Below, piece by piece: positions 7,576 to 48,625 of a stretch of 64,000 nt of DNA. The first letter of the stretch is position 1. Each line of letters starts with the position of its first letter. The position numbers were made by a program, and so were the translations under genes. The stretch comes from a virus (taxonomy: Duplodnaviria > Caudoviricetes): IMG/VR virus record IMGVR_UViG_3300020576_006930, positions 75,133-139,132 of that record; one strand, given 5' to 3'. The notes beneath the pieces were generated by a model that saw only the letters and a program-made list of their open reading frames with translations, had not been told where the DNA came from and ran no database searches.

Positions 7576-7593
7576 ACCGATTTTAAGTAGATT

Positions 7594-9810: not shown

Positions 9811-9853
9811 CATTCTTCATATTTATATCCCAATCATTCTATTTATCTGTACA

Positions 9854-10420
9854 ATGAAACAACTCATTCCTAACTATACCTTTAATGCGGCTACCAATCA
9901 AGTGACGCTAACGGACTACCCAACCTTGGATTTGGAACGTTTATTGTTGATTACCAACGTCACCGATAACATATTTTTATATAATTTTGCCGACCCAACC
10001 ATTGGGGCAACGGTTGCGGGTAATACCATCACTTTAGCCTATAACACCACGGCAATGAGTGATACGGACAAACTTCAGATTTTTTACGATGTGGCAAGTA
10101 ATGCGCCGGCGTCGGAAGAAAGTTTACAATTATTGAAGGAGCAGGTTATTTTAACCCGCAAACTACTCAAAACCACCGAATGTTTGGCTACGGTCGATCT
10201 TAACCAGAGGATGAAGGTAGACCTGGACGGTTACCAAGGCGCAACTTTAACCGCGACGGGTTTAACGACTCGGGTTTTGGATTCTGGCGGCTCGACGATG
10301 TATACTATCAATGGATCGACTTTGACTCTATTGTCAGCTATTCCAGAGTTATGGCGAACGATTGATCAAGCACGCATTTCTTACAATTCTGGTATCCGGG
10401 CAAATTTAACGTTTTCATAA
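9854..10420 (+). CDS. Putative virion/tail-fibre connector protein
   Basis: ATG at 9854 (MKQLIPNYTFNAATNQVTL..LLLITNVTDNIFLYNFADP) follows TATTTAT at 9840; lies between fibre genes. Confidence 0.65.
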   Translation: MKQLIPNYTFNAATNQVTLTDYPTLDLERLLLITNVTDNIFLYNFADPTIGATVAGNTITLAYNTTAMSDTDKLQIFYDVASNAPASEESLQLLKEQVILTRKLLKTTECLATVDLNQRMKVDLDGYQGATLTATGLTTRVLDSGGSTMYTINGSTLTLLSAIPELWRTIDQARISYNSGIRANLTFS

Positions 10421-10423
10421 TCT

Positions 10424-12832
10424 ATGGCTTTAACCAATACACTAAAACAAAAAGTTGATCTTCCAGTATGGGAGTGGATGCGCCCTTGCCCTATCGCCAC
10501 TGCCGCTGGCGGAACGCTTACAACAGCGGATGACGGTGCCCACCGTTATCTATATTATTTGGGCGCGACTTTCTATCGTTACGACACCATATCCGATTCT
10601 TGGAATCAACTAACCACTCCACCCGTAGCTAACAGCGGTATCGCATCCATTAAATACACGGGGTATCGTGGTTATTATGGCCGCGCCATCTCTGCGCCCA
10701 GCGCTAATACTTTGCGCATCGCGGGATTATATGGCAAAGCCTTGTCCGGTTATCGCATTCGGATTATTAGCGGCACTGGCGCTGGTCAGGAACGAACGAT
10801 AACTGATGTCGCTGATCCTATTATTTGGGAGCGGGGGGTAGTAACGGCGGTTTCAACGACCACCCCGTTGTCTCTGTCGGATAGCACCAAAACCTGGGCC
10901 TTTAATCGTTATCGGGATTATCAAGTACGCATTGTATTGGGAACAGGAGTAGCCACCCGACAAACTTTTAAAATTCAGTATAACAGCAATAACACCGTTT
11001 ATGTCGCGGATGGTAACTATCAGGGTCTTGAACCGTTCGTGGGCGCATGGTATCGTGCGTGGACAACCAGTCCTGTTACGACTGGTGGTTCTCAGACTAT
11101 TTTTCAGATTGAATCCAATGATATTACGGTTAATTCCAATTGGGATATTTTACCAAATAATACCTCACGTTTTGTTGTCCTGAGCGGAGGGATATGGGCT
11201 TTGACCGGTGGCACGAACTTTGTGTTGATGTACTATGACATTCTGTCTGACGCATGGTATAGTAAAACCTCCCAAGGCGCAACCGGGATTGGGCCAAGCG
11301 CAGCTTTAGCCACCGATGTAGTCTTAGAGAAGTTGGGTGAATACGCCGGCGCATTTTGGTCCGGATCAGCCACCAGTGGCAGTTTACGCAATTTAACCGA
11401 TGCGACTTTGAATTTGTCAGAAAATCAATATGTCAATTACCGTGTTCGAATAACAAGTGGTTCCGGCTGGGGTCAGGAACGAACAATTATATCCAGCAGT
11501 GTCAATACTTTAACGGTTGCTCCGCCATTTTCGATTTCGCCACTATCTTCATCACAATACAAAATTTACGGTGACACAGATAAGTTGTTATGGACCGGTG
11601 ACGGTAAAGCATCTCTCTACAAATATTCTGCCGAAGCAGATATTCACGTTCAGTCAGATATCTTAGATTACGGTTGCCCCGCTCAGTATTGTTTTACTTG
11701 GGCTGGGATGCCAACTGCTGCGCAACCAATTTCATCCATTACCAGGGTGGGAACTTTAGCGCAAGTCACGACCTCCTATAACCACTGCCTATCTGCGAGT
11801 AATGTAGTTCAGATTTACGGAGCAAGCGATCCGCTTTACAACATTTCCGCTAGCGTCACTTCCGTCCCAACGCTTACTGGATTTACTTATGTTATGGCTG
11901 GTACTCCAGGTTCTAATGCGACGACGGCTATACCCGCGCTTTCCATTAACAATCTATCAGATCCCAGTAAAAACTGGATTACTAATGAACATAGTGGTAG
12001 CATTTGTATTTATCAAAGCGCAACCGTAGGCACATATAACCCTGTGTTTCGTGCGTTTCGCATTCAAAATAATACTTCCCAGTCATTGACTCTCTTTTCA
12101 TCCTCCGCTGCCCCAATTATCGGAGGAAAATACGCGATTTGTTCCCAACAAGCCTTTGGCACATATTATTCCGCGTCTGTTCCTGTAATGGGCAGCGCCA
12201 CAACTCTTGGATCGACCACAACAATTGTGGATAGCACTAAAACTTGGCCGGTTAATATTTTTGCGGGATATCGTGTCAAAGTAATGGCCGGCGCCGGCCA
12301 TGGCTCAGAAGTAGCCATCACCTCTAACACGGCTACAACTTTAACGGTCGGCACATTATTAGCCGCTTCCGATACTAGTTCAATGTATTGTGTCCTGGGA
12401 TCTCCGGTTAAAGGATTATCCCACGGTTTACTTTGGGCCGGGTCTACTTCCGGATCATTATATTCCGGCTACGAAAAATATCTATACTCACCGGTCGGCG
12501 GCGCCTCTTCCCAATTGACAAGGTTTAACCTTCAAACGGATCAGTGGGAACTTATTGAGTGGTATCCATTTATGGAAACCCTAACCACTGGCACTTGTTA
12601 TGCTTACGACGGAACCAATGATATTTATTTCCAAAAGGATAATACTGGAAGAATTTATCGTTTGGATGTCGCAACCTTGGTGGTTGAACCCGCAGCGACG
12701 ATCCCTTACGGCCATAGCACCGTGCTTCTGGGTAATCGTATGGAAATCATTCAAACCGAAGACGATCTCAAATACTTATACATTATGCGTAACACGGGTC
12801 AGGAGATGTGGCGCACGCTTTTGTTTTGGTAA
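10424..12832 (+). CDS. Putative receptor-binding protein: Kelch-like propeller segments interrupted by repeated beta modules
   Basis: FYRYDTISDSW and MYYDILSDAW blade-like motifs; four or five repeats of Y[RQ][IV]RI..G.G.GQ.R.I. Confidence 0.6.
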   Translation: MALTNTLKQKVDLPVWEWMRPCPIATAAGGTLTTADDGAHRYLYYLGATFYRYDTISDSWNQLTTPPVANSGIASIKYTGYRGYYGRAISAPSANTLRIAGLYGKALSGYRIRIISGTGAGQERTITDVADPIIWERGVVTAVSTTTPLSLSDSTKTWAFNRYRDYQVRIVLGTGVATRQTFKIQYNSNNTVYVADGNYQGLEPFVGAWYRAWTTSPVTTGGSQTIFQIESNDITVNSNWDILPNNTSRFVVLSGGIWALTGGTNFVLMYYDILSDAWYSKTSQGATGIGPSAALATDVVLEKLGEYAGAFWSGSATSGSLRNLTDATLNLSENQYVNYRVRITSGSGWGQERTIISSSVNTLTVAPPFSISPLSSSQYKIYGDTDKLLWTGDGKASLYKYSAEADIHVQSDILDYGCPAQYCFTWAGMPTAAQPISSITRVGTLAQVTTSYNHCLSASNVVQIYGASDPLYNISASVTSVPTLTGFTYVMAGTPGSNATTAIPALSINNLSDPSKNWITNEHSGSICIYQSATVGTYNPVFRAFRIQNNTSQSLTLFSSSAAPIIGGKYAICSQQAFGTYYSASVPVMGSATTLGSTTTIVDSTKTWPVNIFAGYRVKVMAGAGHGSEVAITSNTATTLTVGTLLAASDTSSMYCVLGSPVKGLSHGLLWAGSTSGSLYSGYEKYLYSPVGGASSQLTRFNLQTDQWELIEWYPFMETLTTGTCYAYDGTNDIYFQKDNTGRIYRLDVATLVVEPAATIPYGHSTVLLGNRMEIIQTEDDLKYLYIMRNTGQEMWRTLLFW

Positions 12833-12850
12833 AGAAAATTCAATACATAT

Positions 12851-14065
12851 ATGAATATGACACGCAAACTTTTAATTGGTTTTTTAATCTGGAGTATGAC
12901 TCTGACAATGTTCGGCGCAACCGTATCTCTGATCTACGATTCTGTCACGGGAACAATATTGAGTCGCAAAGAGTTGATTTTTCCGTCCAATGCGACTTTT
13001 AACGCGCAGGTATCCATTTATAGCCAAACCAACTCCATTTTAAATGTGGGCATCCTGAACCTAACTAATAGTCTAATCGTTAATGGTTCAGGTGTACTAT
13101 CCCAACTTGCAGTCGGGGCAACCAACGCTTCCGGCGGAACCAATATTCTTGAGCTTTTGTATAATGGGGTGAAGTTGGGGCGTTTCGGAACAAATGGGAT
13201 TTGGTATGGTAATTTCGCCGGGGCGACCAATCTGCCCATAAGCGCATTTTGGGGCTCGGGTGGCACGAACACGGCAAATACAAACGGTACATTAGGACAA
13301 GCTCTGTTTAGTTCCGGCAATGGCGGTGTATATTTCGGAGCAAGTCAGACACCAGGTGTTTTGTTTGGTGACCGGGCCGTCTGGAATGGGACGGCGTGGG
13401 AAGACGACTCACGATGGACGCATTTTGAGAATGAGTTTTTTCTTGCGCAATCCGTTGGCTACCCAATGGCAGTTTTCGGTACCGGAACTGGGGCTGGGGT
13501 AAGCAGCGTAGATACGACGAGCAATCGCCTCGGCGTGGTTACTCTGTCGCCCGGAACAACTGCCAATGGCTATTATGGTGAGTGTATTGGCAGCGCAGCC
13601 ATTCGAGCGTTTACCTGGGGACAAGGTGAAAAGATGATCACCGATCTGACTTGTTATGTGGACACCTTATCCGACGATACAGAGAATTATTGTTTTCAAT
13701 TTGGTTATAGCGATTCACAAACCACAAATAATCCAGCGGATACCTTGCTTGTACAATACTCTAACAATACCAACGCGGGGAAATGGGAAATTATGTCACG
13801 CAATTCTACAGGCAGCACAAATGTTTACGATATCGGCACGAATGTCGTCGCTAGACGTTGGTATGACATTCGTCTTGTTACCGACACGGATGGCACAAGT
13901 TCTGCTTACCTGGACGGTGTTCTGGTTAAGTCTGGTATTCCCGCCACGTCAGGTCAAGTCATTCCGATGTTTAGGGTAAATAAAGCCGCGGGGCTACTAG
14001 ATCGGCCGATCCGGTTGGATTATTATCGTTGGTCTATCAAGCGGGCGACTACCAAATATCAATGA
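12851..14065 (+). CDS. Signal-peptide-bearing fibre-like protein with C-terminal lectin/ConA-like domain
   Basis: MTRKLLIGFLIWSMTLTMFG-A signal peptide; GTLGQALFSSGNGGVYF fibre-like motif; WYDIRL..SAYLDGVLV ConA-like motif. Confidence 0.65.
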   Translation: MNMTRKLLIGFLIWSMTLTMFGATVSLIYDSVTGTILSRKELIFPSNATFNAQVSIYSQTNSILNVGILNLTNSLIVNGSGVLSQLAVGATNASGGTNILELLYNGVKLGRFGTNGIWYGNFAGATNLPISAFWGSGGTNTANTNGTLGQALFSSGNGGVYFGASQTPGVLFGDRAVWNGTAWEDDSRWTHFENEFFLAQSVGYPMAVFGTGTGAGVSSVDTTSNRLGVVTLSPGTTANGYYGECIGSAAIRAFTWGQGEKMITDLTCYVDTLSDDTENYCFQFGYSDSQTTNNPADTLLVQYSNNTNAGKWEIMSRNSTGSTNVYDIGTNVVARRWYDIRLVTDTDGTSSAYLDGVLVKSGIPATSGQVIPMFRVNKAAGLLDRPIRLDYYRWSIKRATTKYQ

Positions 14066-17000
14066 GATACGCAATTTTTATATTTTTATTGTTATGCTTG
14101 GTGTTAAATTCTCCAGCGGAAAACCGCGTCCCCAATTCTGGATTTGAATTAGGACCTTCGCGTGGTTGGTTGTCGTGGGAAAATTTAAATAAACCGACGT
14201 TTAATGGCAACGGATCGCTCTACACATTCATGAACACGAATGCGAATTCCGGCGGTTATTCCTTTCGATCCACTGGAAGGTTGCGTTCTCGCTTGTTTTG
14301 GTTAACCAATGGAAATTATGTTCTGACTTTTTCTGCCAAAGCAACTTCCGCCCATACTCATAAAGCGGGAATTTTAAACGAAACCGCAGGTGTAACTACC
14401 GTTGATCCGACAGATACGATTTCAGTCACTACCTCTTGGGCACGGTATACAAATACTTTCACGGCAACCAGTGATGGTCTTTATTTTGTAAAATTTATTG
14501 ATGTTAACGCGTCGGTTTTTTATGTGGATGATGTTCAGGTTGAGTCCGGCGTAACGGCGCATGACTATGCGCCTTCAACTCCAGTTGAACTTGGTATTAC
14601 GATTCCCCAGACAAATTCTATGTTTTTTGTTGGTCAAACGGCGCAGTTCACACTTAACTTTTGGAACACAGGCCCGCCGACCAATGCCACGGCGCGGTAT
14701 GATGTTTATGATTTCTGGAACTCAAATGTGTTGAGCGGAGTTACCTCCGTCGCCCTGGCGGCAGCAACGAACACCACCACTAATATAAATATCCCCAATC
14801 TAACCGGCTGGTTTCGGGTAATGACTAGACTTGCGGATTATCCCGATTCGTGGGACGAAGCCACGTTAGTCGCATATCCGTTTGCGTCGAATATTACCTA
14901 CAACGCAGCAACGGACTGGCTCGGCGGGCATCCACAAGATTCCACAAACAATATTAATCGTGAAATGATGGCAGGGCGACACATCGGGAGAACTCTCGGG
15001 CCTGGATGGCAAGCCAATCGCTGGGGATTTGTGTCGGGTATTGAATATAATCAAGGGGTATTTGACTGGAACGATTACGCCATCACAAATTTGACGCAGC
15101 AAGGAATGTATGTGGTTGCGACCCTGACTCCGGAAGACGGAACGTGGCCGCATTACTTTACGAATAGCGAGGCGGTGAATCTGGGGCTGTGGAGTAACTA
15201 CTGCTACAAGCTGGTTTACCGCTACAATGTCGAACTTGGACTCAGCAACAGCATCATTTATGAGGTTGGACCAAATGAACCACTACAATCCGGTCCGACT
15301 ACACCCATCAATGTCCGGGACGCCGTGACCTACGCTAATGTTCTGACCTACGGCGTTTGGGGCGCAACCAATGCGCATGGGAGCGCAAAACTAATCGGTA
15401 TTGCCGGTGCGGCTGGAGCGGGTGAATGGGCTTGGTGGGTCTACACGAACTTACCAGCCGGAACAAAGGCAGCACTAACGGCGGTTTCCACCCACGTCTA
15501 CCCACAGGATTCAGTGGGGGTTGCTTTAAACCCAAACGGAAGTTTTAACGCAGTAAGCTTCGTGAATAATTCTTACGGTTATGCGACCAATTTTGCGGGG
15601 ATCAAGCCTGTCTGGAATACGGAATCCGGAGTAGGAACTGTTTCAGGCTTCAAAGGTCAAAATACAATGTGGACGAATTATTATTCATTGTTTAAAACCG
15701 ATTACACTTATGAGAGCCAACGAATGGAACGGCAGAGCCGAAGTTTAACGGCGGTAATTACCAGCACTGAAGAAGCTCTCCGTGGTCTTGGCGCTGGTTT
15801 GGATAAGTTTTTATATTATGATTGTCGGAGATTTAACGATGCTTCATTTCAAACCGCTCAACCATACGGTCAAGATTATATGCAAGTTGATCACCCGCAT
15901 CTAGTCTCCTTGTCCATCGCACAATATATGGTAACACACGGCTTTGGTCGGGTTGTCAATAGTGGAGAAACTAAAGTTGAAGCCTATTCTTTTACTAATT
16001 CCAGTGGCAATGCGGTAATAGCGGCGTGGAACTACGACCGCACCAACCGAACGGCGACGTTAACCAATGCGTTTTTTGCCGCTTACGACGTAATGGGAAA
16101 TCGGATTTCCACTAACTCAGCAAACATCGCACTAGACCGATTTCCAACCTACTTTGTGAGCAGCACGCTTTCGTTAGTTCAGATGAGCAATATGTTTTGT
16201 ACAGCAACGTTTGTTAATGTTGCCGATACGATTCCACCTCAGGTTTCCTTCTCCGTTGCGCCGACTGGAGCGTGGAACGGTGATTCCGCCGGAACATTGG
16301 TTAAATGGGACGCGTTGGATAACCGGTGGTCGAATTATCCTGAGGGCTACGATTACACTAATATTCTCAGCAAATATTCACTAGACGGAGCTGCCTATAC
16401 CACTTATTCCCAGAGCAATTACGTTTGGTTATCTGGGCTGTCAGCTGGCAACCACACAATTAAAGTTACAGTTAAAGATAAAAATAACAATGCCGACGAA
16501 TGGACATATGATTTTTTGGCTGGCGAAGACATCCCGGTTATTACCATCACCTCACCGACTAACAATCAACCTTCCGTCGCGACATCAATAACGGTTACCG
16601 GAACAAGTTCTGATAATGATACGGTGAGTGGGGTTTCTTTAACTAACATATCAACTGGAGTCGGCGCAACCGTAACCGGAACCACTTCTTGGAGCGCAAC
16701 AATGACGTTGCGGCAAGGAACAAATACATTACAAGCCGTAGTCACAGATAATTTAAGTAATAAAGCAACTAATTCAATTGATGTCATAGCGGTCAACCTG
16801 ACAAACCGGAACACCGCCGTTAAATCTCCCTATTTAGGTGTACAGTATTTACAAATTCAGAATCCCGCTGCCCAGCATACTTTGATGTCTAATGTGCCCG
16901 CCACCTATGTCAATATGCCTATCACGTATGCGATCCTGACTGGCGGCGCATACGGGGGCCACGCAAACGGAACAAATTATTACGATGCGACGTATGCCGC

Positions 17001-18021
17001 CAATACAAACGCGGGGTGGAATATCATTTTACAATTTTCTGATATGCCCACGAATCTTATTGCCACATATGTTCCTTATTTAGTTGCTAGGTACCCTTCG
17101 TGGATGGTGATCCCGTTGAATGAGAATGACAGCGCAGCGGAGTCGTCGGCGATCATCAAGTTGTTCCGGACGGCGTTACCGACGCAACGGCTCGGAGGTC
17201 CAGCTCTTTATCATATCGTCAACCCACCATATATTGATGCTTTGATCGCGAGCAACGCATTCCAATTACTTGACAGCTTCGTCGCACACGATTACCTTGC
17301 GGTGCCGTTGAACGGGCTCTGCACGGCTGGCTGGTGGACGAATAGCTACTATCACCCGAGCAACACGCCGACGGGCTACCATCCGGAGTGGTCGGTTGGG
17401 AATCTGCCTAGCCGTTTAACGTGGATGAATAGCTACACGAACCAATTGCGGACGGATTATACCGATACCCCGAAGGCAATTGTTTCAGAATATGGCATTT
17501 ATCAAAATGATGTTCCTGATGGCGAATACGCAGGACGTATATTCCGTTCTATGCATATACCAGTTTTCGTCACGGCGAACTTCGCCACCACTAATCAGTG
17601 TCCATATAATAATGCTCTATACGATGGAGTTGGGGTTGGTTATTTCACCGAAAGTCAACAGGAATTTCTTTCCAGTGTAGAAATTACCAGTTCTTGTGCG
17701 GTTGCTTCTCCCGTCGTCGTGGCAAGTGGAGGCGCAGGTTTATATAGCACAAGTAGTAGTACAATTAACGTATCAGGAACTTCAGATAATCCTGACGCGG
17801 TGATCTCGTGGAGTAATTCCCGAGGCGGCGCCGGATCGGCAACGGGCAATCTGACGTGGAGTAAGACGGGGATAACTCTTTATAGCGGTGGTAATACCTT
17901 AACTTTTACCGCAACATCAGGAGAGGATAGCACGTCTACTACATTAACGGTTACGTATACTCCGCCGCCTCCTGGTGGTTCGACGAACAATGTTTGGATA
18001 TTAAATCTTTACAACCACTGA
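14062..18021 (+). CDS. Exported multidomain glycoside hydrolase: signal peptide, CBM4/9-like, clan GH-A domain, Ig-like domains, second GH-A-like domain, Ig-like domain
   Basis: ATG 14062 overlaps the upstream TGA (ATGA). MRYAIFIFLLLCLVLNSPA signal peptide; NSGFE..FYVDDVQVE CBM; NEP and WNTESG catalytic-Glu motifs; a second LNE..HDY..VSEYG set. Confidence 0.7.
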   Translation: MRYAIFIFLLLCLVLNSPAENRVPNSGFELGPSRGWLSWENLNKPTFNGNGSLYTFMNTNANSGGYSFRSTGRLRSRLFWLTNGNYVLTFSAKATSAHTHKAGILNETAGVTTVDPTDTISVTTSWARYTNTFTATSDGLYFVKFIDVNASVFYVDDVQVESGVTAHDYAPSTPVELGITIPQTNSMFFVGQTAQFTLNFWNTGPPTNATARYDVYDFWNSNVLSGVTSVALAAATNTTTNINIPNLTGWFRVMTRLADYPDSWDEATLVAYPFASNITYNAATDWLGGHPQDSTNNINREMMAGRHIGRTLGPGWQANRWGFVSGIEYNQGVFDWNDYAITNLTQQGMYVVATLTPEDGTWPHYFTNSEAVNLGLWSNYCYKLVYRYNVELGLSNSIIYEVGPNEPLQSGPTTPINVRDAVTYANVLTYGVWGATNAHGSAKLIGIAGAAGAGEWAWWVYTNLPAGTKAALTAVSTHVYPQDSVGVALNPNGSFNAVSFVNNSYGYATNFAGIKPVWNTESGVGTVSGFKGQNTMWTNYYSLFKTDYTYESQRMERQSRSLTAVITSTEEALRGLGAGLDKFLYYDCRRFNDASFQTAQPYGQDYMQVDHPHLVSLSIAQYMVTHGFGRVVNSGETKVEAYSFTNSSGNAVIAAWNYDRTNRTATLTNAFFAAYDVMGNRISTNSANIALDRFPTYFVSSTLSLVQMSNMFCTATFVNVADTIPPQVSFSVAPTGAWNGDSAGTLVKWDALDNRWSNYPEGYDYTNILSKYSLDGAAYTTYSQSNYVWLSGLSAGNHTIKVTVKDKNNNADEWTYDFLAGEDIPVITITSPTNNQPSVATSITVTGTSSDNDTVSGVSLTNISTGVGATVTGTTSWSATMTLRQGTNTLQAVVTDNLSNKATNSIDVIAVNLTNRNTAVKSPYLGVQYLQIQNPAAQHTLMSNVPATYVNMPITYAILTGGAYGGHANGTNYYDATYAANTNAGWNIILQFSDMPTNLIATYVPYLVARYPSWMVIPLNENDSAAESSAIIKLFRTALPTQRLGGPALYHIVNPPYIDALIASNAFQLLDSFVAHDYLAVPLNGLCTAGWWTNSYYHPSNTPTGYHPEWSVGNLPSRLTWMNSYTNQLRTDYTDTPKAIVSEYGIYQNDVPDGEYAGRIFRSMHIPVFVTANFATTNQCPYNNALYDGVGVGYFTESQQEFLSSVEITSSCAVASPVVVASGGAGLYSTSSSTINVSGTSDNPDAVISWSNSRGGAGSATGNLTWSKTGITLYSGGNTLTFTATSGEDSTSTTLTVTYTPPPPGGSTNNVWILNLYNH

Positions 18022-18040
18022 TTGATAGTTATGGCGTGAT

Positions 18041-18448
18041 ATGAAAAAGGTAAAAATAATCTGGTTTTGTCTTGGGTTTATTATAACCGGTCTATTATGG
18101 GCGGCGCCTTCCAAACAATTGTTGGGGCCAACCGCAAGTACAACCGCTAACGCATTGGCCCGATGGACCGATACCACGGCTTCCCGCTTGACTAATTCCG
18201 TGGTGTTCGTGGATATCAATGGCAATCTCAGCGGAGTTAATACCCAGAATTTGAACCAAGCTAATATTAGTACAGGTATCACCACCAATGGTCTGATTTT
18301 TTTAAGCCGCAGTAGTTTACCTAGTGCCAGTGATGTAGGTGGAACTATCGGTTCCATCACGAATTATCTTATGACGGTAACTAACGGAATAACGACGGTG
18401 TTTTGGTCCGACGGCACCACTTTATACAGCAAACAAATCGCTCCTTAA
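18041..18448 (+). CDS. Exported stand-alone copy of the shared 111-aa C-terminal domain
   Basis: MKKVKIIWFCLGFIITGLLWA signal peptide followed by KQLLGP...WSDGTTLYSKQIAP. Confidence 0.8.
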   Translation: MKKVKIIWFCLGFIITGLLWAAPSKQLLGPTASTTANALARWTDTTASRLTNSVVFVDINGNLSGVNTQNLNQANISTGITTNGLIFLSRSSLPSASDVGGTIGSITNYLMTVTNGITTVFWSDGTTLYSKQIAP

Positions 18449-18454
18449 AACGAT

Positions 18455-19084
18455 ATGAAAAAAATACTAACATTCTTGCTGGCGATTCCATGGTTGGCAT
18501 CGGCTCAAATCGGGATCACCGGCAACGCGGCGTTTGTTGGCGCGGCGGGCTTCTCGGTTGCGAGCACGGGCGGAGGCAGTTGCCCCGGCACGCCTACGGT
18601 GGCCCAAAATGTTTACAACGCAAATCAAGCATGTGGGCTTACGGATGGAATTGGACATTACCGAACGGGTTTAATCGGATACACCAACTCGGCGACGATC
18701 AACATTTGCGGGGCTGACTTTTTAATGACCTATGTGGCGGGTGACATTTCAGGGCTGACGTTTAAGGCTTATGTTTACTCGCTATCTGGAAACAACCTCG
18801 ACACGTTGCTAGCAACATCCTCAACCACGATTTCTGGTAATAATAGCTGGTCCCATACCACCAATCATTTCGATTTTTCAACGGCGGCTACCGTTAGTCC
18901 GGGAACGCGCGTAGCAGTTTTTGTGCAACCAACGCAGGCGGGGGATAATTCCAACTACGCTAGAATTGACGTGCAAGACACAAATGTTTTGACCCCCGGA
19001 AACTTAGCGACTTGGAATAGCACGGGCGGAATTGAATTGAACGCAACCACGAATGACCCATGGATAAGCCTTTATTTTTATTGA
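18455..19084 (+). CDS. Small exported beta-sandwich protein
   Basis: MKKILTFLLAIPWLASA-Q signal peptide; beta-rich domain resembling 20870..21370. Confidence 0.7.
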   Translation: MKKILTFLLAIPWLASAQIGITGNAAFVGAAGFSVASTGGGSCPGTPTVAQNVYNANQACGLTDGIGHYRTGLIGYTNSATINICGADFLMTYVAGDISGLTFKAYVYSLSGNNLDTLLATSSTTISGNNSWSHTTNHFDFSTAATVSPGTRVAVFVQPTQAGDNSNYARIDVQDTNVLTPGNLATWNSTGGIELNATTNDPWISLYFY

Positions 19085-20868
19085 TCGGTTTGCTGCTGGC
19101 ATTGCAGGCGCAAGCGGCGACCAACATTGCAACGAGTGTGTCTCGCTCTGATGTTAACGCGGCAATGTCGGCCTGTTCCAACGGGGATACCCTTTCGATT
19201 CCCGCCGGGTCCGCAGTGTGGACTTCGGCGCTTACGGTGACGAAATCAATTTCAATCATCGGAGCTGGCACAAATGCAACCTTCATCACCAACGGGCAAG
19301 CTAGCGGGGTCTGCACCATTTTTGCGTTTGAACCCAGCGCGAACGCCCCGCAGCGGCTTAGTTCAATGGCTTTCATCCAGACCAACGGGTTTGCTCAGCA
19401 ATATGTAATTACTGTCAAGGGGGCTATTAGCTCGTTTCGGCTCGACCGCTGTTTTTTTACTCAAGGCAAGACTATCATCCAAACGGCACTCGCGGCGGGA
19501 AGCGGGCCGGTTTTCGGCGTGATTGACCATAACCATTTCTATAATTGTTCACTGGAAATACAGTGCTTCAATTTCCGAACCGGAGACACGTTGGACGGCG
19601 ACCAAATGTGGACAGCCTGGCGGGCCGCTCCGAGCAGCTATATCGGAACGACTAACAGCATGGTGGTAGAAAATAATGCGTTCCATGTGGACAACTCTTT
19701 GGCGGGTGACAATGACGAGCCAATGAGCGGAGGGCGTGGGGCAATTTACGCTTGGCGATTCAACACCCATCGAAGCGACAACACCTCGCGGGCCTATGTG
19801 GGTGTTGATATGCATGGTGCGTTTGCGGGGGTTCGTGGGGGAACGCTGTATGAGATTTACTCCAACAATTTTTACATTGCCACCACATACCGACTCACCA
19901 AACAGCGAGGCGGAAGCTGGATATCCTACGGCAACACCTATTGGAACACGAACACGGTGAGGGACTTCATAAACTTGGGTGCGGAAACGGGCACCGAGCA
20001 AACGGCGAATGCGGCGACCGGCGACGGTTACACCAATTCTTTTTATTGGGGGAACATCTCAAACGGTTCGGAAAATACAACCGTTGTTAACGACAGTCTG
20101 CTGCCCGCAGTTGAGGGGACGCATTACTTTTTGCACGCCCCGGCTTCCACCAACAATTTTTACCCCTACACCCCGCTTGTCTATCCGCATCCACTCGTGA
20201 CGGCGCAGGATGGCGGCGGAGGCGGCGACGTAACCGCCCCGACCTGCGTGATCACATCGCCGGCCTCGGTATCGAGCGGGAGCAGCGGAAGCTACAGCAC
20301 CAGCAGCAGCACGATCACGGTGAGCGGAACGAGCGACGATGCGACGGCGACGGTGACGTGGAGCAATTCACGCGGGGGAGCGGGTACGGCGACGGGAAGC
20401 ACAAGCTGGTCCGCACCAGACATCGCTCTTTATTATGGTGGTAATACACTAACTATATCAGCGACGGATTTGAATTCCAATATAACCTCCACCGTCCTGT
20501 ATGTCATTTATATTAGTCCTTTTTCCACTGCGAAACAAATCACCGGTCCCTTAGCTTATTCCCGGGCGCAATCCGCGGCGACCTGGGCCGATACCAATGC
20601 TTATAAAGTACTGGATTCACCCGTTTTAATTGATAATATTGGGAATATCACTGGCGTAAATACTCAACAGATGGTCCAAGCAAATGTCACGACTTTATAT
20701 ACCACCAATGGCTTCCTCTTACAACAGAAAGCAAGCCCACCGGAAGTGTCAACCATCGGCGGTTCAGTTGGTAGTATAACCAATGGTTTTTTATTGAATT
20801 ATAATGGCAAAATTTATATGTATTGGAGTGACGGTAATACATTATATTCCAAACAATTAATCCCCTAA
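19060..20868 (+). CDS. Exported right-handed beta-helix (pectate-lyase-like) protein with Ig-like domain and shared C-terminal domain
   Basis: LLIGLLLALQAQA signal peptide; GDTLSIPAG, VIDHNHF, VVENNAF, EIYSNNF beta-helix rungs; shared C-terminal domain at 20533-20868. Confidence 0.75.
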   Translation: MDKPLFLLIGLLLALQAQAATNIATSVSRSDVNAAMSACSNGDTLSIPAGSAVWTSALTVTKSISIIGAGTNATFITNGQASGVCTIFAFEPSANAPQRLSSMAFIQTNGFAQQYVITVKGAISSFRLDRCFFTQGKTIIQTALAAGSGPVFGVIDHNHFYNCSLEIQCFNFRTGDTLDGDQMWTAWRAAPSSYIGTTNSMVVENNAFHVDNSLAGDNDEPMSGGRGAIYAWRFNTHRSDNTSRAYVGVDMHGAFAGVRGGTLYEIYSNNFYIATTYRLTKQRGGSWISYGNTYWNTNTVRDFINLGAETGTEQTANAATGDGYTNSFYWGNISNGSENTTVVNDSLLPAVEGTHYFLHAPASTNNFYPYTPLVYPHPLVTAQDGGGGGDVTAPTCVITSPASVSSGSSGSYSTSSSTITVSGTSDDATATVTWSNSRGGAGTATGSTSWSAPDIALYYGGNTLTISATDLNSNITSTVLYVIYISPFSTAKQITGPLAYSRAQSAATWADTNAYKVLDSPVLIDNIGNITGVNTQQMVQANVTTLYTTNGFLLQQKASPPEVSTIGGSVGSITNGFLLNYNGKIYMYWSDGNTLYSKQLIP

Positions 20869-20869
20869 T

Positions 20870-21370
20870 ATGCTAAGTCCTATTTTCATTATGGGTCAGT
20901 TCCTTCAGCCCTTATATGGGTTTTCTGTTGCCGCCGCCGGCGATATCGTTTGGATTTCGCAAACCACCGACGCGGATTGGTGGCAAGGGACCATTCACTC
21001 TCAAGGGATTAAAAACTCATCGGCCCGCACCATTTCAAAAGTTAGAATCAAACTGGAAAATGCCGCCGGGGATACCACGGGCACCGTCGGCATTTACTCG
21101 CTTCAAAATGCCGGCGGAACCCAAACCGGAACAAGCTCGCAAGCCGTAACCCTAACCGGCGCAACCGCCGCATGGTATGAGTTCACGTGGGCGTCTAATC
21201 CGACAACGACGGCAGGCGACTTTTTTATCTGCCTATCCTGCGGGAGCGGGAACATTCGTGTGCGAACCAGCACGGTTTCGACGAGTTATGAAAACTCGTC
21301 TTACGACTACTGGAACGATGCGACCACGCACGCGGCAGACATGGTGTTTGAAATTTATACAATCCCTTGA
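20870..21370 (+). CDS. Small beta-sandwich protein, probable paralog of 18455..19084
   Basis: TISKVRIKL..VGIYS..WYEFTW..DMVFEIY parallels INICGADF..AYVYS..HFDFS..WISLYFY; signal peptide unclear. Confidence 0.6.
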   Translation: MLSPIFIMGQFLQPLYGFSVAAAGDIVWISQTTDADWWQGTIHSQGIKNSSARTISKVRIKLENAAGDTTGTVGIYSLQNAGGTQTGTSSQAVTLTGATAAWYEFTWASNPTTTAGDFFICLSCGSGNIRVRTSTVSTSYENSSYDYWNDATTHAADMVFEIYTIP

Positions 21371-23424
21371 AGCGTTTTCTTTCATTTATTTTTGCGGTTG
21401 GTTTGGCCCTGCCAGCTTTTTCGGCTACCTACTATATTGATTACGGGGCGGCGAATGATTCGGCCAATGGTCTGACCACCTCCACCCCCTGGAAGCGATG
21501 CCCGGGCATGGTGGGCTTCGCTGGCACTTACTCGCATAGCGCAGGCGACGTGTTCACATTCAAGGGTGGGGTGACGTGGCCAAAGACGGTCTTCCCTTTG
21601 ACCATCGGTTACAGCGGCGCCGCTGGCAACGTGGACACCTATACTGTGGATCAAACTTGGTATTCAGGAGGGGCTTACGACTATCCGGTTTTCGACGGCG
21701 AGACGACGCTCGGAGGTGCGATTATTTCAATTCCGGCAGGTGGCCGGGATTACATAAAGATCAATGGGTTGAAGATGCAGAATTGCGACAACGGCACGAA
21801 CTCCGTAGGCGCAATTATGATTGACATGTATGATGGGCGAGATATTGAAATCAGCTATTGCTGGCTCGCCCCAAACTCCATCGAGGCTTTTGATTACCTA
21901 GCCAACTCCAAAAGCGCGGCCAACATTTCAATCCACCATTGCACGATCCGAAACGCGATTCGAGGGGTGGTTTATGCCACGACCGGATTCAGCGTGACGA
22001 ACGTTTCAGTTTACAACAACGATTGGCAAGGGCCGGGGACGATGTACATGGGCGGCTACCATGCAGACGGCTTAATGGTGGGCGACCCAATCGCCGGCGT
22101 GGCCAATTCGATTTACAACTTGCGCGTTTACAACAACAAATTCTACGGGAATTGGCAGATTGCAACAGCCATCATTTACAGCAATGGGGGCGTGAACGGC
22201 GCTGAGATTTACAACAACGTCTTTTCGTTGGAAAACACAAACGGATACGCGACCAATCAGCCAATTTTCGGAGCGTTCTGCCAGTTTTATCGAAACGACA
22301 CCAATCTTCGTTTCTACAACAACACCTTCTCCAGTGACGCCATGCACGGATGGAACGGCAGTGACCCGTTAGGGGCAAAGGCGGCGATTGCTCAATACAC
22401 TCCCATCAGCGGCGCAGTGTTGACCGCCTACAACAATCTTTTTTCCAAATGTGCAATCGGGATAAATGTTGATGCGACGGTAACGGTTGTTTCAGATTAC
22501 AACCTGCACGAGCCAGACGCATCGCATTGGGGTTATCTGATCTGGGGGGCGACCGCGTATAGTTCGCTTGCCGCCGCGCAAGGGGCAGGCTATGAGCTTC
22601 ATTCGCCGGCACTGGCCTACGCCAGCTTTGTAACCGTTTCAAATGGCATCACGGGGGGTTCTGATTTCCGCCTTCAAACCAATTCTCCCGCCATCGGCGC
22701 CGGCACGAACCTAAGCGCCTTATTTACGGGCGACATTTTAGGTACCAATCGCGGAAGCTCGTGGACGCTTGGCGCGTATCAATCCGCGTCAAGCGGCGCC
22801 GGGGGCGGCGACGTTACCACCCCGACCGTTACCATTACCAGTCCCACTCATAACCAAGTTATTAGCGCAAACTCCATTGCGGTTAGCGGAACCAGTTCGG
22901 ACGATGTCGCCGTCAGTTCGGTCGCCTTGACTAATACCTCAATGAATGCCGGCGCCACGGTCACCGGAACAACCAGTTGGACGGCGACGATTCCCCTTCG
23001 CACCGGGACCAACCTTTTAAGCGCCGTGGCCACGGATAGCAGTGGTAATAAAGCTACTAATACGATCACGGTCATTTACTCCGTGGCCAAACAGATTATC
23101 GGCCCAGTCGGATTAACAACGGCCAGGGCGCTTGCACGTTGGTTGGACACTTCCGCTTATAAATTAGCAAATAGCTCAGTGGTTATTGATGATTTAGGTA
23201 ATGTCTCAGGTGTTAGTAACCAAACCATAATGAGACTGGACGTTGGTATAGTGTGTGTCTCCAACAACTTGATTTTTATCCAGCAAAACACTGCTCCAAT
23301 TGCTGGTGATATTGGGGGATCGGTTGGAAGTGTAACGAACTGCGTCATACGTAATGTCAATGGTATTCTAAATGGTTATTATTCAGACGGTGTAACTCTT
23401 TGGACAAAACAATTAGCCCCCTAA
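21367..23424 (+). CDS. Exported right-handed beta-helix protein with Ig-like domain and shared C-terminal domain
   Basis: TTG start overlapping the upstream stop; MKRFLSFIFAVGLALPAFS-A signal peptide; TYYID..DSANG..PWK, YNN rungs, DFRLQTNSPAIGAG..LGAY; shared C-terminal domain at 23089-23424. Confidence 0.78.
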   Translation: MKRFLSFIFAVGLALPAFSATYYIDYGAANDSANGLTTSTPWKRCPGMVGFAGTYSHSAGDVFTFKGGVTWPKTVFPLTIGYSGAAGNVDTYTVDQTWYSGGAYDYPVFDGETTLGGAIISIPAGGRDYIKINGLKMQNCDNGTNSVGAIMIDMYDGRDIEISYCWLAPNSIEAFDYLANSKSAANISIHHCTIRNAIRGVVYATTGFSVTNVSVYNNDWQGPGTMYMGGYHADGLMVGDPIAGVANSIYNLRVYNNKFYGNWQIATAIIYSNGGVNGAEIYNNVFSLENTNGYATNQPIFGAFCQFYRNDTNLRFYNNTFSSDAMHGWNGSDPLGAKAAIAQYTPISGAVLTAYNNLFSKCAIGINVDATVTVVSDYNLHEPDASHWGYLIWGATAYSSLAAAQGAGYELHSPALAYASFVTVSNGITGGSDFRLQTNSPAIGAGTNLSALFTGDILGTNRGSSWTLGAYQSASSGAGGGDVTTPTVTITSPTHNQVISANSIAVSGTSSDDVAVSSVALTNTSMNAGATVTGTTSWTATIPLRTGTNLLSAVATDSSGNKATNTITVIYSVAKQIIGPVGLTTARALARWLDTSAYKLANSSVVIDDLGNVSGVSNQTIMRLDVGIVCVSNNLIFIQQNTAPIAGDIGGSVGSVTNCVIRNVNGILNGYYSDGVTLWTKQLAP

Positions 23425-23497
23425 GCTATCTTTTTAATAAAATATTGATCGGTTTTCATACCGTTTACCATATTTATAATCAAAGGAATCTTATTAT

Positions 23498-23722
23498 ATG
23501 GACTGGTTAAAAGGTATTTTAGAAGACAATAGTGGCGGCGCATCCTCCACACGCATATTAATGTTGGTCTGGGGCGTCGGAGTTTTCGTCGTTTGGGCTT
23601 ATATTTCCCTCCATACGGGAGTAATGGTCGTTTTACCAGAAACCGTAATCACCGTGCTCCTTGGTACTTCCGCAATGAAAGTTGTTCAGCGGTTTGGGGA
23701 AAAGCCTGAAGATAAGAAATAA
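23498..23722 (+). CDS. Small two-TM membrane protein, holin candidate
   Basis: 74 aa, two hydrophobic helices, charged C-terminus (FGEKPEDKK); own TATTTATA (23471) and AAGGA. Confidence 0.5.
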   Translation: MDWLKGILEDNSGGASSTRILMLVWGVGVFVVWAYISLHTGVMVVLPETVITVLLGTSAMKVVQRFGEKPEDKK

Positions 23723-33196: not shown

Positions 33197-34231
33197 ATGA
33201 GTGACATTTTTATTTGTAAACATTGTGGAAAAGGAATTGGTATAAGACAATTTGGCCACCACCTTTCGAAAATCCACCAACAGAAATATGAAGATTATGT
33301 AAAAGATAATATCGTCGATTTTAAACATTTGAATTGGAAATTGTGTTCCGATTGTGGTGAGTTGTGTAGAAGTATTTCCAATAAATGTGGAAAATGTTAT
33401 ACTAAAACTCATCAAATAAAAGGAAATCAATATATTCAGTGTAACTATTGTAAAGAGAAAGTCCATTCCAAGGTGTTGTCTCAACATTTAAAAATGTATC
33501 ACAATGTTGATTTTAGAGAATATGTCAAAAATAATCTTAACGATTTTAAGAAGTTTGGATGGAGCAATTGTATTGTTTGTGGAACGGTGTGCGTGAACCG
33601 AAGTAAAGTTCATAATAACCCAACTTGTTCTCCCGAATGTTTATGGAAAATTAGAAAAACTTGGGTGGGAGAAAATTCTCCACGTTTCGGCGCTATTCTT
33701 TCAGAAGAAACGAAGCGAAAGATTTCGAATGGAAATAATGGAAAAAAAGGATTGAGAGGAGATCTTAATCCGGCCTGTCGAATAGATGTGAGAAAAAGAA
33801 TTTCAAAAACTCGTATAGAACGTGGAGTGGCGAAAGGGAAAAACAATCCGATGTTTGGAAAAACCCATACTCCCGATTCAATTGCTAAAATATTTTCTCA
33901 TCGGAAGATGAACAGATTAGAAAAGTTGGTTGCGGATGAACTTGATAAAGCATCCATTCCATATTATTTTCAATTTTTTATTACTGAAAATGGGATTTGT
34001 AAATCATACGATTTCAAAATTAAAGATCGCCCAATTATTCTTGAAATAGATGGTGATTTTTGGCACGGTCATCCAGAAGCAAAAAACCATTTCGACAGAC
34101 TGGATCAGGTAAAAAACAATGACATTTTAAAAAATTCTATGGCATCCAACAGGGGATATAAACTTATTAGGTTTTGGGAACGTGATATTAAGAAAGATCC
34201 TTCCATTATCCTTAAATCTATAGTCGGTTGA
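33197..34231 (+). CDS. Free-standing homing-type endonuclease (zinc fingers, NUMOD3, Vsr/DUF559-like nuclease)
   Basis: CxxC..HL..H repeats; NPMFGKTHT; YDF..ILEIDGDFWH..GYKLIRFWE; AT-rich. Confidence 0.8.
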   Translation: MSDIFICKHCGKGIGIRQFGHHLSKIHQQKYEDYVKDNIVDFKHLNWKLCSDCGELCRSISNKCGKCYTKTHQIKGNQYIQCNYCKEKVHSKVLSQHLKMYHNVDFREYVKNNLNDFKKFGWSNCIVCGTVCVNRSKVHNNPTCSPECLWKIRKTWVGENSPRFGAILSEETKRKISNGNNGKKGLRGDLNPACRIDVRKRISKTRIERGVAKGKNNPMFGKTHTPDSIAKIFSHRKMNRLEKLVADELDKASIPYYFQFFITENGICKSYDFKIKDRPIILEIDGDFWHGHPEAKNHFDRLDQVKNNDILKNSMASNRGYKLIRFWERDIKKDPSIILKSIVG

Positions 34232-48010: not shown

Positions 48011-48625
48011 ATGGCACGAAGACGTTGGAAAATTCAAGATATTCAATCGGTGGTTTCAGGGGAAAACCCATTCACTCAATTTGGTTATCATGTACAGGAA
48101 CCCAAACGAAAATTGGATGAACGTTGGGTGGATGCGAAGGGTAAAGTGTGGGAACAACGGAGTGGGTATAAAGCGATTGTCAATGAAAAAGCGGATGCGA
48201 TTAGGGATTTAGTCCGGCAAAATTGCTCCAAATGCCATATTGATTTGCGGTGGGGAACTCAATTGGATAAGAGGTTTTTTCCAAAGACGGGAATGTGCTA
48301 TAATTGTACCATTGATCACGATACTAAAATGCGTATGGATGGAACGTGGGATGTATATGAAAAACGCAAAGTTTTAAAAAATCAATTAGCTTATATCCAA
48401 GACATGCGCAATTACATTAAAGAATCAATTGACTATCTCACGACAACCGATGGGAAAATGTCTTTTGTGGATGAAAAGGGCAAACTTGAAACGTGGACAA
48501 ATACCCAAATTGATATTTTGTTGTCCGGAGCTAAAATGGATTATGAAAAACTGACACAGGATATTGTCGCGACGGAAAACCTCATCGCCTCCTTGGGGGA
48601 GGAAAAGGAAGTTAATGGCCAGTAA
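48011..48625 (+). CDS. Hypothetical zinc-binding protein upstream of terminase
   Basis: CSKC..CYNC. Confidence 0.7.
   Translation: MARRRWKIQDIQSVVSGENPFTQFGYHVQEPKRKLDERWVDAKGKVWEQRSGYKAIVNEKADAIRDLVRQNCSKCHIDLRWGTQLDKRFFPKTGMCYNCTIDHDTKMRMDGTWDVYEKRKVLKNQLAYIQDMRNYIKESIDYLTTTDGKMSFVDEKGKLETWTNTQIDILLSGAKMDYEKLTQDIVATENLIASLGEEKEVNGQ

What the first reader, a model, noticed from the sequence alone, without database searches (positions are those of the whole stretch)
18041..23424. Indel-free 111-aa C-terminal domain in three exported proteins, one stand-alone
Seen: 18113-18448, 20533-20868 and 23089-23424 are each exactly 336 nt. They align without gaps: KQ..GP....A...A.W.DT.A.....S.V..D..GN..GV..Q......N......P.....GG..GS.TN.....NG......SDG.TL..KQ..P. 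The large GH protein lacks the domain but is followed directly by the stand-alone copy with its own signal peptide. Inference: a common trimerisation/anchoring or sorting domain, supplied in trans for the first unit. Its first half resembles a tail-fibre motif. It has no TM helix and is not PEP-CTERM- or T9SS-like by eye.
Basis: partly seen in the sequence, partly recalled or inferred. Interest (0 to 1): 0.82.

Follow-up and report, generated by a model that had tools for sequence, protein, structure and literature searches.

The report
Shared fibre-end module on exported phage enzymes
Three exported proteins of a large uncultured phage end in the same 111-residue module, made of one tail-fibre repeat plus a previously undescribed 55-residue end-cap, which most likely joins the proteins into three-chain stalks rather than acting as a sorting signal.

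Summary
Three gap-free 111-aa copies (46-47% identical, 36 invariant columns) end a stand-alone protein and two enzyme-like proteins, and all three proteins carry Sec-type signal peptides.

The module has two parts. Residues ~3-46 are one copy of a repeat that occurs 5-25 times in tandem in phage tail fibres. Residues ~57-111 are a strongly conserved cap (…APTAA-IGGTVGSVTNH…YWSDGTTLYSKQLAP-stop). The cap matches no Pfam, NCBIfam, PHROG or PDB sequence.

The cap is rare: about 45 clusters among 1.84 billion representative proteins. It always sits at the extreme C-terminus, nearly always on signal-peptide proteins. These are phage-encoded lyase-, esterase- or tailspike-like enzymes, or bacterial fibre proteins inside polysaccharide-biosynthesis loci.

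In one Verrucomicrobiota genome, a paralogue of the cap protein ends instead in a Peptidase_S74 trimerisation chaperone. The weak structural matches are all C-terminal ends of trimeric tailspikes.

Best reading (about 0.45): a fibre stub plus a C-terminal trimerising or terminating knob for exported enzymes.

A general sorting signal is unlikely, because the cap is single-copy and was found in 1 of ~445 Verrucomicrobiota genomes. "Supplied in trans to the big glycanase" is not supported: a sister phage keeps the stand-alone gene beside a homologue of that large protein that has its own fused copy.

Other first readers of this scan noted the same stretch on this genome only.

The parts
18041..18448 (+). 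Stand-alone gene. Signal peptide at 18041-~18112, then exactly the 111-aa module (18113-18445), then the stop.
   Evidence: Five further stand-alone families of 136-167 aa, most with a signal peptide, exist elsewhere (P0006, P0011, P0012, P0017, and L005 ~9926-10336).
18113..18256 (+). Tail-fibre shaft repeat (module residues 1-48) of the stand-alone copy.
   Evidence: Profile positions 3-46 match 5-25 tandem stretches in large phage fibre proteins. Those proteins hit phrog_28473 'tail fiber protein'. The AF2 monomer model is low-confidence here.
18281..18445 (+). C-terminal cap (module residues 57-111) of the stand-alone copy.
   Evidence: Profile positions ~53-111 match the extreme C-terminus of ~45 otherwise unrelated proteins. 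The AF2 model has pLDDT 79-93 here: a short helix plus a three-stranded antiparallel meander.
19060..20868 (+). Exported 602-aa protein: signal peptide, beta-helix-like enzyme region, Gly-rich linker, Ig-like domain (~20245-20490), then the module (20533-20865; cap 20701-20865).
   Evidence: (Glucodextran_B, E 0.0034, below the cut-off). The beta-helix reading rests on direct reading of the translation and is an inference.
21367..23424 (+). Exported 685-aa protein: signal peptide, right-handed beta-helix enzyme, GAGGGD linker, Ig-like domain (22822-23076), then the module (23089-23421; cap 23257-23421).
   Evidence: Glucodextran_B 2.3e-8, Big_7. 274 homologues were found, including ~500-aa secreted Beta_helix / 'choice-of-anchor Q' proteins.
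14029..18021 (+). Large exported protein (probable start at the Met at 14062) with two Ig-like domains and no module. Putative glycanase, not verified.
   Evidence: In L005 it is represented by two genes, and the first of these carries the module.
23498..23722 (+). 74-aa holin-like protein, two TM segments by eye, that closes the cassette.
   Evidence: 72% identical to a 75-aa protein that closes the equivalent cassette in L005. No family search was run on this protein; the holin label comes from its size and hydrophobic segments only.
12851..23722 (+). Cassette of mostly signal-peptide proteins set in the phage tail module, with higher GC than its surroundings.
   Evidence: It lies between baseplate genes and further large, unannotated genes. 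The homologous cassette sits at a different place on the L005 map.

Best explanation
The 111 residues are a two-part C-terminal module. The first part is one unit of a phage tail-fibre shaft repeat (GPxxxTxNAxxRWxDTxxxxLxNSxVxIDDxGNxxGV). The second is a conserved ~55-residue terminating cap that always ends the polypeptide.

Inferred mechanism: after Sec export and signal-peptide cleavage, three chains associate through the cap and zip up the adjacent fibre repeat. This gives a short trimeric stalk. The enzyme heads hang from it on Ig-like domains and Gly-rich linkers. The cap would then do the job done in other fibres by the P22-type C-terminal domain, the foldon, or the S74 chaperone: registering and capping a three-chain fibre end. 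It may also contact a ligand, as fibre tips do.

The three copies have identical length and share their invariant positions. Homo-trimers and mixed trimers are therefore both conceivable. The stand-alone protein would be a headless subunit.

The whole cassette is an exported, polysaccharide-directed accessory set of the phage and not part of the virion.

Shown here: the composite nature of the module, its distribution, its C-terminal position, the link to export, and the architectural equivalence to S74. Inferred: trimerisation itself, mixed assembly, and the substrate.
For: 1. The N-half is a repeat used in tandem in phage tail fibres.
2. The cap is terminal. 43 of 47 proteins end at its last residue, and the other four within 1-6 residues.
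3. Cap passengers are typical trimeric-depolymerase material. They include tail spike/fibre PHROGs down to E 7e-40, pectate-lyase-like beta-helices and SGNH esterases. One protein has a collagen-like run, GPPGPQGPPGANGTN, shortly before the cap.
4. In the Verrucomicrobiota genome G001, the cap protein P0062 shares its post-signal-peptide N-domain (49% identity) with a paralogue that ends in Peptidase_S74 with an SDRDSK motif. That is the position of the trimerisation chaperone in MAT-type exported fibres (PMC10769870).
5. The confident part of the AF2 model gives only weak fold matches. The best ones are all extreme C-terminal ends of trimeric phage-type depolymerases: PL16 lyase 4ufq, Z 5.1; Det7 tailspike 666-708, Z 4.0; 9NA tailspike, Z 3.5; P22 tailspike 618-665, Z 3.4. 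[quoted passage not shown]
6. The cap is far better conserved than its varied passengers. This fits self-association better than recognition of varied glycans.
7. The lack of indels across paralogues and across the L005 copies fits a register constraint.
Against: No oligomer was modelled or measured, because only monomer prediction was available. All fold matches have Z below 8, a range the tool itself says can reflect a common arrangement; a three-stranded meander is ubiquitous.

Bacterial homologues of the P0003 enzyme are mostly ~500-aa proteins without any such module, so the enzyme does not need it in order to fold. A Gly-rich linker and an Ig-like domain separate the enzyme from the module, so the module cannot be a folding nucleus for the beta-helix.

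The collagen-like case is a single protein. Some bacterial homologues of the enzyme carry binding-type C-terminal add-ons (PG_binding_1, InlB B-repeat, fn3), which would equally suggest an attachment role.
Confidence: 0.45

Rival explanations
1. The cap is chiefly a ligand-binding tip: a small lectin- or CBM-like knob. It tethers the exported enzymes, and the stand-alone protein, to host envelope polysaccharide or another surface component. This is not exclusive of trimerisation.
For: The layout enzyme / Ig-like spacer / C-terminal module is the usual layout of secreted glycan-active enzymes. Bacterial cap proteins lie inside EPS/O-antigen loci with GT4, Bac_transf, Wzy_C and Asn synthase genes. 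MAT fibres end in adhesive tips (PMC10769870). Conserved aromatic residues occur in the cap (Y/W-W-S-D-G, L-Y/W). Homologues of the P0003 enzyme carry binding-type C-terminal domains.
Against: The cap is nearly invariant while the passengers (lyase, esterase, phosphoesterase, fibre) imply different substrates. A CBM need not sit at the exact C-terminus, yet 43 of 47 proteins end at its last residue. No CBM or lectin match was found by sequence or fold.
Confidence: 0.2
2. The proteins are virion tail fibres or spikes after all. The hydrophobic N-termini would be attachment segments rather than cleaved signal peptides, and the cap would be the distal fibre tip.
For: The cassette lies inside the tail module, downstream of baseplate J/wedge genes. 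The L008 cap protein resembles tail spikes and sits beside tail assembly proteins. Several passengers hit tail spike/fibre PHROGs.
Against: The N-termini have the n-region, h-region and small-x-small layout of Sec signals in at least 45 of 58 cap proteins, against 10 of 108 repeat-only fibre proteins. The same cap occurs on chromosomal exported proteins in EPS loci. The P0003 enzyme groups with secreted bacterial proteins. The cassette occupies a different map position in the sister phage, and the same small two-TM protein follows it in both phages.
Confidence: 0.12
3. The cap is a C-terminal sorting or anchoring signal read by a host envelope machine, analogous to the T9SS CTD or PEP-CTERM. 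The phage borrows it to place its enzymes on or beyond the outer membrane.
For: It shows the hallmarks of sorting domains: an extreme C-terminal position, an N-terminal signal peptide, diverse passengers, and conservation far above that of the passenger.
Against: There is only one copy in the 6.6-Mb genome that has it. It was not found in 400 further genomes of that phylum or in 44 of the same family. Only 1 confirmed hit came from a pattern scan of 185,579 species genomes. No TM segment is present and there is no T9SS or PEP-CTERM model match. Some cap proteins may lack a signal peptide.
Confidence: 0.08
4. The stand-alone copy exists to supply the module in trans to the large upstream protein, which lacks it.
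For: The stand-alone gene starts 19 nt after the module-less large protein.
Against: In L005 the stand-alone gene sits directly upstream of a homologue of the large protein that has its own fused copy. Nothing in the large protein's C-terminus resembles a docking partner, and that end is not conserved in the L005 counterpart. Stand-alone genes form at least six diverged families, so they look like a function of their own.
Confidence: 0.1

Closest known systems
C-terminal trimerisation / auto-chaperone ends of phage tailspikes (P22, Det7, 9NA tailspikes; PL16 HylP-type lyases)
   Same: A small beta-rich element at the very end of a polysaccharide-degrading, fibre- or spike-like protein. These are the best, though weak, fold matches (Z 3.4-5.1). 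A role in aligning three chains is documented for P22 (PMC3357383).
   Different: There is no sequence similarity. Here the element is only ~55 aa and follows a fibre repeat rather than an interdigitated beta-helix. It is separated from the enzyme by a linker and an Ig-like domain, and it sits on Sec-exported proteins instead of virion proteins.
Peptidase_S74 intramolecular chaperone domain (endosialidase, T5 L-shaped fibre, MAT fibres)
   Same: A conserved C-terminal module shared by otherwise unrelated fibre and spike proteins. A G001 paralogue with the same N-domain as a cap protein ends in S74.
   Different: No S74 profile match. No SDxxxK motif is conserved at the module border. The cap is less than half the size, and there is no sign of self-cleavage.
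Bdellovibrio MAT (mosaic adhesive trimer) fibres, PMC10769870
   Same: Signal-peptide-bearing, phage-fibre-like exported proteins with a conserved domain after the signal peptide and interchangeable C-terminal tips. The bacterial cap proteins (P0062, P0051, P0029) have this layout.
   Different: The window's three proteins lack the N-domain (only the cap matches) and are phage-encoded enzymes. The cap is not among the tips described in that paper. Identity of the N-domain with the Bdellovibrio one was not tested.
T4 fibritin foldon
   Same: A short C-terminal beta-hairpin element with an aromatic-x-x-DG-x-W/L turn pattern that nucleates a trimer (my own recollection of the foldon sequence).
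   Different: No detectable homology, and fibritin did not appear in the fold searches. The cap is twice as long.
T9SS C-terminal domain / PEP-CTERM sorting signals
   Same: A C-terminal position on signal-peptide proteins with diverse passengers.
   Different: No model match, no TM helix, single-copy and extremely sporadic in genomes.

Membership tests
Phage tail-fibre shaft repeat (as in phrog_28473 'tail fiber protein') | A ~40-aa motif, GP..S.T.NA..R(W/F)DGT.G..L.NS.V.IDD.GN, occurring in tandem arrays | tested here: met
   Module positions 3-46 match 5-25 stretches per protein in large fibre proteins, and these proteins hit phrog_28473. In the window there is only one unit per protein. 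P0001-P0003 themselves do not reach any PHROG at E 0.01.
Peptidase_S74 (PF13884) intramolecular chaperone | A match to the family profile and an SDxxxK Ser-Lys dyad at the domain border | tested here: not met
   No PF13884 hit at E<=1 on P0001-P0003, nor at E<=0.001 on 48 cap proteins. No conserved SDxxxK in the alignment. The G001 paralogue that does have S74 shows SDRDSK.
T9SS C-terminal sorting domain | A match to the Por_Secre_tail / TIGR04183-type models, with many paralogues per genome | tested here: not met
   No NCBIfam hit at E<=0.1 on 10 cap proteins. One copy in G001.
PEP-CTERM / exosortase signal | A PEP motif, a C-terminal TM helix and a basic tail, with many paralogues per genome | tested here: not met
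   The C-terminus is hydrophilic (…YWSDGTTLYSKQLAP). No NCBIfam hit. Single-copy.
P22-type tailspike C-terminal domain | Structural superposition with the trimeric C-terminal beta-prism | tested here: inconclusive
   Z 3.4 (rmsd 2.4-2.5 Å, 42-45 residues) to P22 618-665, Z 4.0 (rmsd 2.4 Å, 41 residues) to Det7 666-708, Z 3.5 (rmsd 2.1 Å, 41 residues) to 9NA 631-673. These values are below the range the tool calls meaningful, and the model is a monomer.
MAT fibre family (PMC10769870) | A signal peptide, a conserved ~130-aa beta-rich N-domain, a trimeric fibre, and a variable C-terminal tip | tested here: not met
   The window proteins share only the cap with the MAT-like P0062/L004 protein. Bacterial cap proteins do have a shared N-domain after the signal peptide, but its identity with the Bdellovibrio domain was not tested.
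Carbohydrate-binding modules | A sequence or fold match to a CBM or lectin family | tested here: inconclusive
   No Pfam or PDB sequence match. No CBM among the fold hits. A weak or missing fold match does not exclude the family.

The most novel reading that the evidence does not exclude
The shared module lets different Sec-exported phage enzymes, together with a headless stand-alone subunit, co-assemble outside the cytoplasm into mixed three-chain complexes. This would be a phage-encoded 'mini-cellulosome' built on a tail-fibre stub. It would attack or remodel the host's envelope polysaccharide from the infected cell, timed with lysis by the adjacent holin-like gene. The same cap would be used by bacteria to terminate exported fibres encoded in EPS loci.
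Probability: 0.15. Interest if true: 0.75.

Novelty: new variant of a known kind. Interest (0 to 1): 0.5.

Why it matters
Conserved C-terminal ends that register trimeric phage fibres are a known principle. This cap, however, is an unannotated family: no Pfam, NCBIfam, PHROG or PDB relative was found. It sits on signal-peptide-bearing, so presumably exported, rather than virion proteins.

The cap marks a small, recognisable class of phage-encoded secreted polysaccharide-active enzymes, and it links them to exported fibre proteins in bacterial EPS loci. If it trimerises, it is a compact, portable extracytoplasmic trimerisation tag. If the copies mix, it would be a new way for a phage to build multi-enzyme complexes.

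It also gives a simple sequence handle, the conserved C-terminal cap motif ending …YWSDGTTLYSKQLAP, for finding such cassettes in metagenomes.

Tried and rejected
- Pfam, NCBIfam and PHROGs on the three proteins gave nothing for the module. The only traces were sub-threshold: Gp34_trimer at E 0.11 and DUF1829 at E 0.076.
- PDB sequence searches with profiles A1 and A4 found nothing relevant.
- tblastn of P0001 against 50,697 GenBank phages found no match.
- AF2 with only the 3 copies gave an unusable model, pLDDT 45. With 48 sequences only the cap is confident.
- Foldseek against PDB and BFVD found nothing at E<=0.001. VIA-align gave a best Z of 5.1.
- Two ESM Atlas searches gave no score at or above 0.9 and no informative family.
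- The word-based homologue search with the module profile found almost nothing beyond the window's own proteins.
- PDB sequence searches for the passengers P0002, P0003 and P0004 found no relatives, so 'GH' remains unverified.
- A literature search for the repeat motif and for signal-peptide tail fibres turned up nothing pertinent.
- The search for related loci with the 16-row alignment failed because the alignment was too diverse.
- One homologue search timed out.
- The Python machine was lost. A planned tree of stand-alone versus fused copies, and pairwise identity tables, were therefore not made.
Full report
**Setting**

The window is the last 64 kb of a 139-kb IMG/VR virus record that CheckV rates 39% complete. 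Its genes run almost entirely on the + strand. They include baseplate J/wedge (5599-7575), terminase (48564-50246) and portal (50288-52366). It is therefore a large uncultured tailed phage.

Between the baseplate genes and further large, unannotated genes lies a block, 12851-23722, whose proteins mostly begin with Sec-type signal-peptide-like N-termini. Its GC content is about 0.50, against 0.40-0.46 around it.

**Observation**

The three ORFs 18041-18448, 19060-20868 and 21367-23424 end in 111 residues that align without a gap. Identity is 46-47%, with 36 invariant columns. A profile of the three finds only these three places in the contig, at E about 1e-57 to 1e-60.

At the DNA level the copies differ at many synonymous sites. 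They are old paralogues under protein-level selection, not products of recent conversion.

The large upstream protein lacks the module and the stand-alone gene follows it after 19 nt. After predicted signal-peptide cleavage, the stand-alone protein is essentially just the module.

**The module is composite**

A profile search of 1.84 billion representative proteins gave 188 hits, which split cleanly into two classes.

- Positions 3-46 match 5-25 tandem stretches in large proteins without signal peptides. These proteins hit the PHROG family 'tail fiber protein'.
- Positions ~53-111 match a single stretch at the extreme C-terminus of about 45 otherwise unrelated proteins.

Only a handful of proteins match over the full 111 residues. 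These are four stand-alone proteins of 136-167 aa (three with an N-terminal signal peptide, the fourth with one after a longer called N-terminus) and one 1089-aa protein.

The 'domain' is therefore one tail-fibre shaft repeat plus a separate cap. The cap consensus is TNG..F.Q...APTAA.IGGTVGSVTNHL..NVNG.L.DYWSDGTTLYSKQLAP followed by the stop codon.

**Properties of the cap**

- 43 of 47 cap proteins end at its last residue, and the other four within 1-6 residues.
- A simple signal-peptide heuristic is positive for 45 of 58 cap proteins. Most of the rest are visibly truncated gene calls. Among the repeat-only hits it is positive for 10 of 108.
- Passengers include pectate-lyase-like beta-helices, SGNH/GDSL esterases, a Laminin_G_3 domain, a metallophosphoesterase, and regions that hit tail spike/fibre PHROGs down to E 7e-40.
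- The cap matches nothing in Pfam, NCBIfam, PHROGs or PDB sequences.
- With a 48-sequence alignment, AF2 models residues 61-111 at pLDDT 79-93: a short helix followed by a three-stranded antiparallel meander. The fibre-repeat half stays low-confidence, as expected for a monomer model of a fibre segment.
- No fold match is significant. The best ones are nonetheless all the extreme C-terminal ends of trimeric phage-type depolymerases: PL16 lyase 4ufq 169-216 at Z 5.1, Det7 tailspike 666-708 at Z 4.0, 9NA tailspike 631-673 at Z 3.5, and P22 tailspike 618-665 at Z 3.4.
- PL16 enzymes are triple-stranded (PMC11669647). The P22 C-terminal domain acts as an auto-chaperone for trimer assembly (PMC3357383).

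**Where the cap occurs**

*Viral contigs.* Four IMG/VR contigs carry it.

L005 is a sister phage, with up to 86% identity in neighbouring genes. It has a stand-alone copy with its own signal peptide. Directly downstream is a 1089-aa homologue of the window's large protein, and this homologue carries a fused copy. Next comes a separate 437-aa protein equal to the second half of the window's large protein (73% identity). Last is a 75-aa two-TM protein that is 72% identical to window 23498-23722.

The whole L005 cassette sits at a different position relative to conserved neighbours. The cassette is therefore mobile within this phage lineage. The stand-alone gene is kept even where the large protein has its own copy.

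L007 is a complete 59-kb phage with a single cap protein. In L008 the cap protein resembles tail spikes.

*Bacteria.* A pattern scan of 185,579 species genomes confirmed one hit, in a 6.6-Mb Verrucomicrobiota MAG. That genome has one copy. HMM searches of 400 further genomes of the phylum and 44 of its family found none.

In that MAG, and in metagenome contigs L009, L010 and L015, the cap proteins lie inside polysaccharide-biosynthesis loci. These loci encode GT4 glycosyltransferases, Bac_transf, Wzy_C, asparagine synthase, an epimerase and an O-acetyltransferase. L010 has two cap proteins.

**Architectural equivalence to S74**

The MAG's cap protein P0062 consists of a signal peptide, a conserved N-domain (FTYQGRL…), a GDSL esterase, a fibre region and the cap. 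Its N-domain has four paralogues in the same genome.

One of them is 49% identical over residues 23-183. It continues into Gly-rich fibre repeats and ends in Peptidase_S74 with an SDRDSK motif.

This is the layout of the Bdellovibrio MAT fibres: a signal peptide, a conserved N-domain, a trimeric fibre, and either S74 or another tip (PMC10769870). The cap thus occupies the place that the trimerisation chaperone or tip occupies in paralogous exported fibres.

**Interpretation**

Several facts point the same way:

- a fibre repeat directly upstream of the cap;
- a strict C-terminal position;
- passengers typical of trimeric depolymerases;
- one collagen-like run shortly before the cap;
- the S74 replacement;
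- the consistent, if weak, fold matches.

Together they make a fibre-stub plus trimerising or terminating knob the best reading. I put it at about 0.45.

In the window the knob is separated from each enzyme by a Gly-rich linker and an Ig-like domain. The P0003 enzyme has many ~500-aa bacterial homologues without any such module. The module is therefore an add-on that would multimerise or tether the enzymes. It is not a folding nucleus for them.

Equal length and shared invariant positions would allow mixed trimers, with the stand-alone protein as a headless subunit. This is inference only.

**Rivals**

- A ligand-binding tip is compatible with much of the evidence and is not exclusive of trimerisation (0.2).
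- A virion fibre role is made unlikely by the signal peptides, the bacterial EPS-locus homologues and the movable cassette (0.12).
- A general sorting signal is disfavoured by the single copy and extreme rarity in genomes (0.08).
- 'Supplied in trans to the large protein' is weakened by L005 (0.1).

**Limits**

No multimer prediction was available. The Python machine was lost, before a tree of stand-alone versus fused copies could be built. The host is unknown.

**Verdict**

Its nature is refined to a tail-fibre repeat plus a new C-terminal cap family on exported proteins of phages and of bacterial EPS loci. This is a new variant of a known kind, the C-terminal fibre-terminating domains, in an unusual exported context. 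Interest is moderate.

Noticed in passing
window 23498-23722 (+); L005 14964-15191: A 74-aa holin-like protein, with two TM segments by eye, closes the exported-protein cassette. It is 72% identical to the protein that closes the equivalent cassette in the sister phage, so it travels with the cassette.
   Followed up: partly
window 12851-23722 vs L005 ~6728-15191: The cassette sits at different map positions in the two related phages. In the window it lies between the baseplate-proximal genes and 23804. In L005 it lies between homologues of window 34251-35264 and 35271-38024. Only the stand-alone module gene, the large glycanase-like protein and the small TM protein are shared.
   Followed up: partly
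window 14029-18021 vs L005 10360-13629 and 13605-14918: The window's 1330-aa protein corresponds to two genes in L005. The first half (27% identity) carries the module in L005. The second half (73% identity) is a separate protein with its own signal peptide. This is a gene fusion or fission between sister phages.
   Followed up: partly
window 33197-34231 (+): An HNH/homing-endonuclease-like gene (PHROG hits) sits between two genes that are adjacent in L005. It is probably a mobile endonuclease insertion.
   Followed up: no
window 39775-42975 (+): A single 1066-aa ORF combines an SbcD-like N-terminus and an SbcC-like C-terminus (phrog_100 and phrog_77). It is an apparently fused SbcCD nuclease.
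   Followed up: no
P0109 (141 aa, metagenome): A stand-alone-type protein with the signal peptide and the first ~39 module residues then diverges into unrelated sequence. It is probably a frameshifted or decayed copy.
   Followed up: no
G001 (Verrucomicrobiota MAG): L026-L030: Five paralogous exported fibre proteins share a post-signal-peptide FTYQGRL N-domain. At least two different C-terminal ends occur: the cap and Peptidase_S74. This is a MAT-like mosaic family outside Bdellovibrio.
   Followed up: partly
window 18455-19084 and 20870-21370 (+): Two small ORFs (209 aa with a signal peptide, and 166 aa) are interleaved between the module-bearing genes. They have no family match and no counterpart in L005.
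   Followed up: no
window 21367: The 685-aa gene starts with TTG and overlaps the stop of the preceding ORF by 4 nt, which suggests translational coupling.
   Followed up: no
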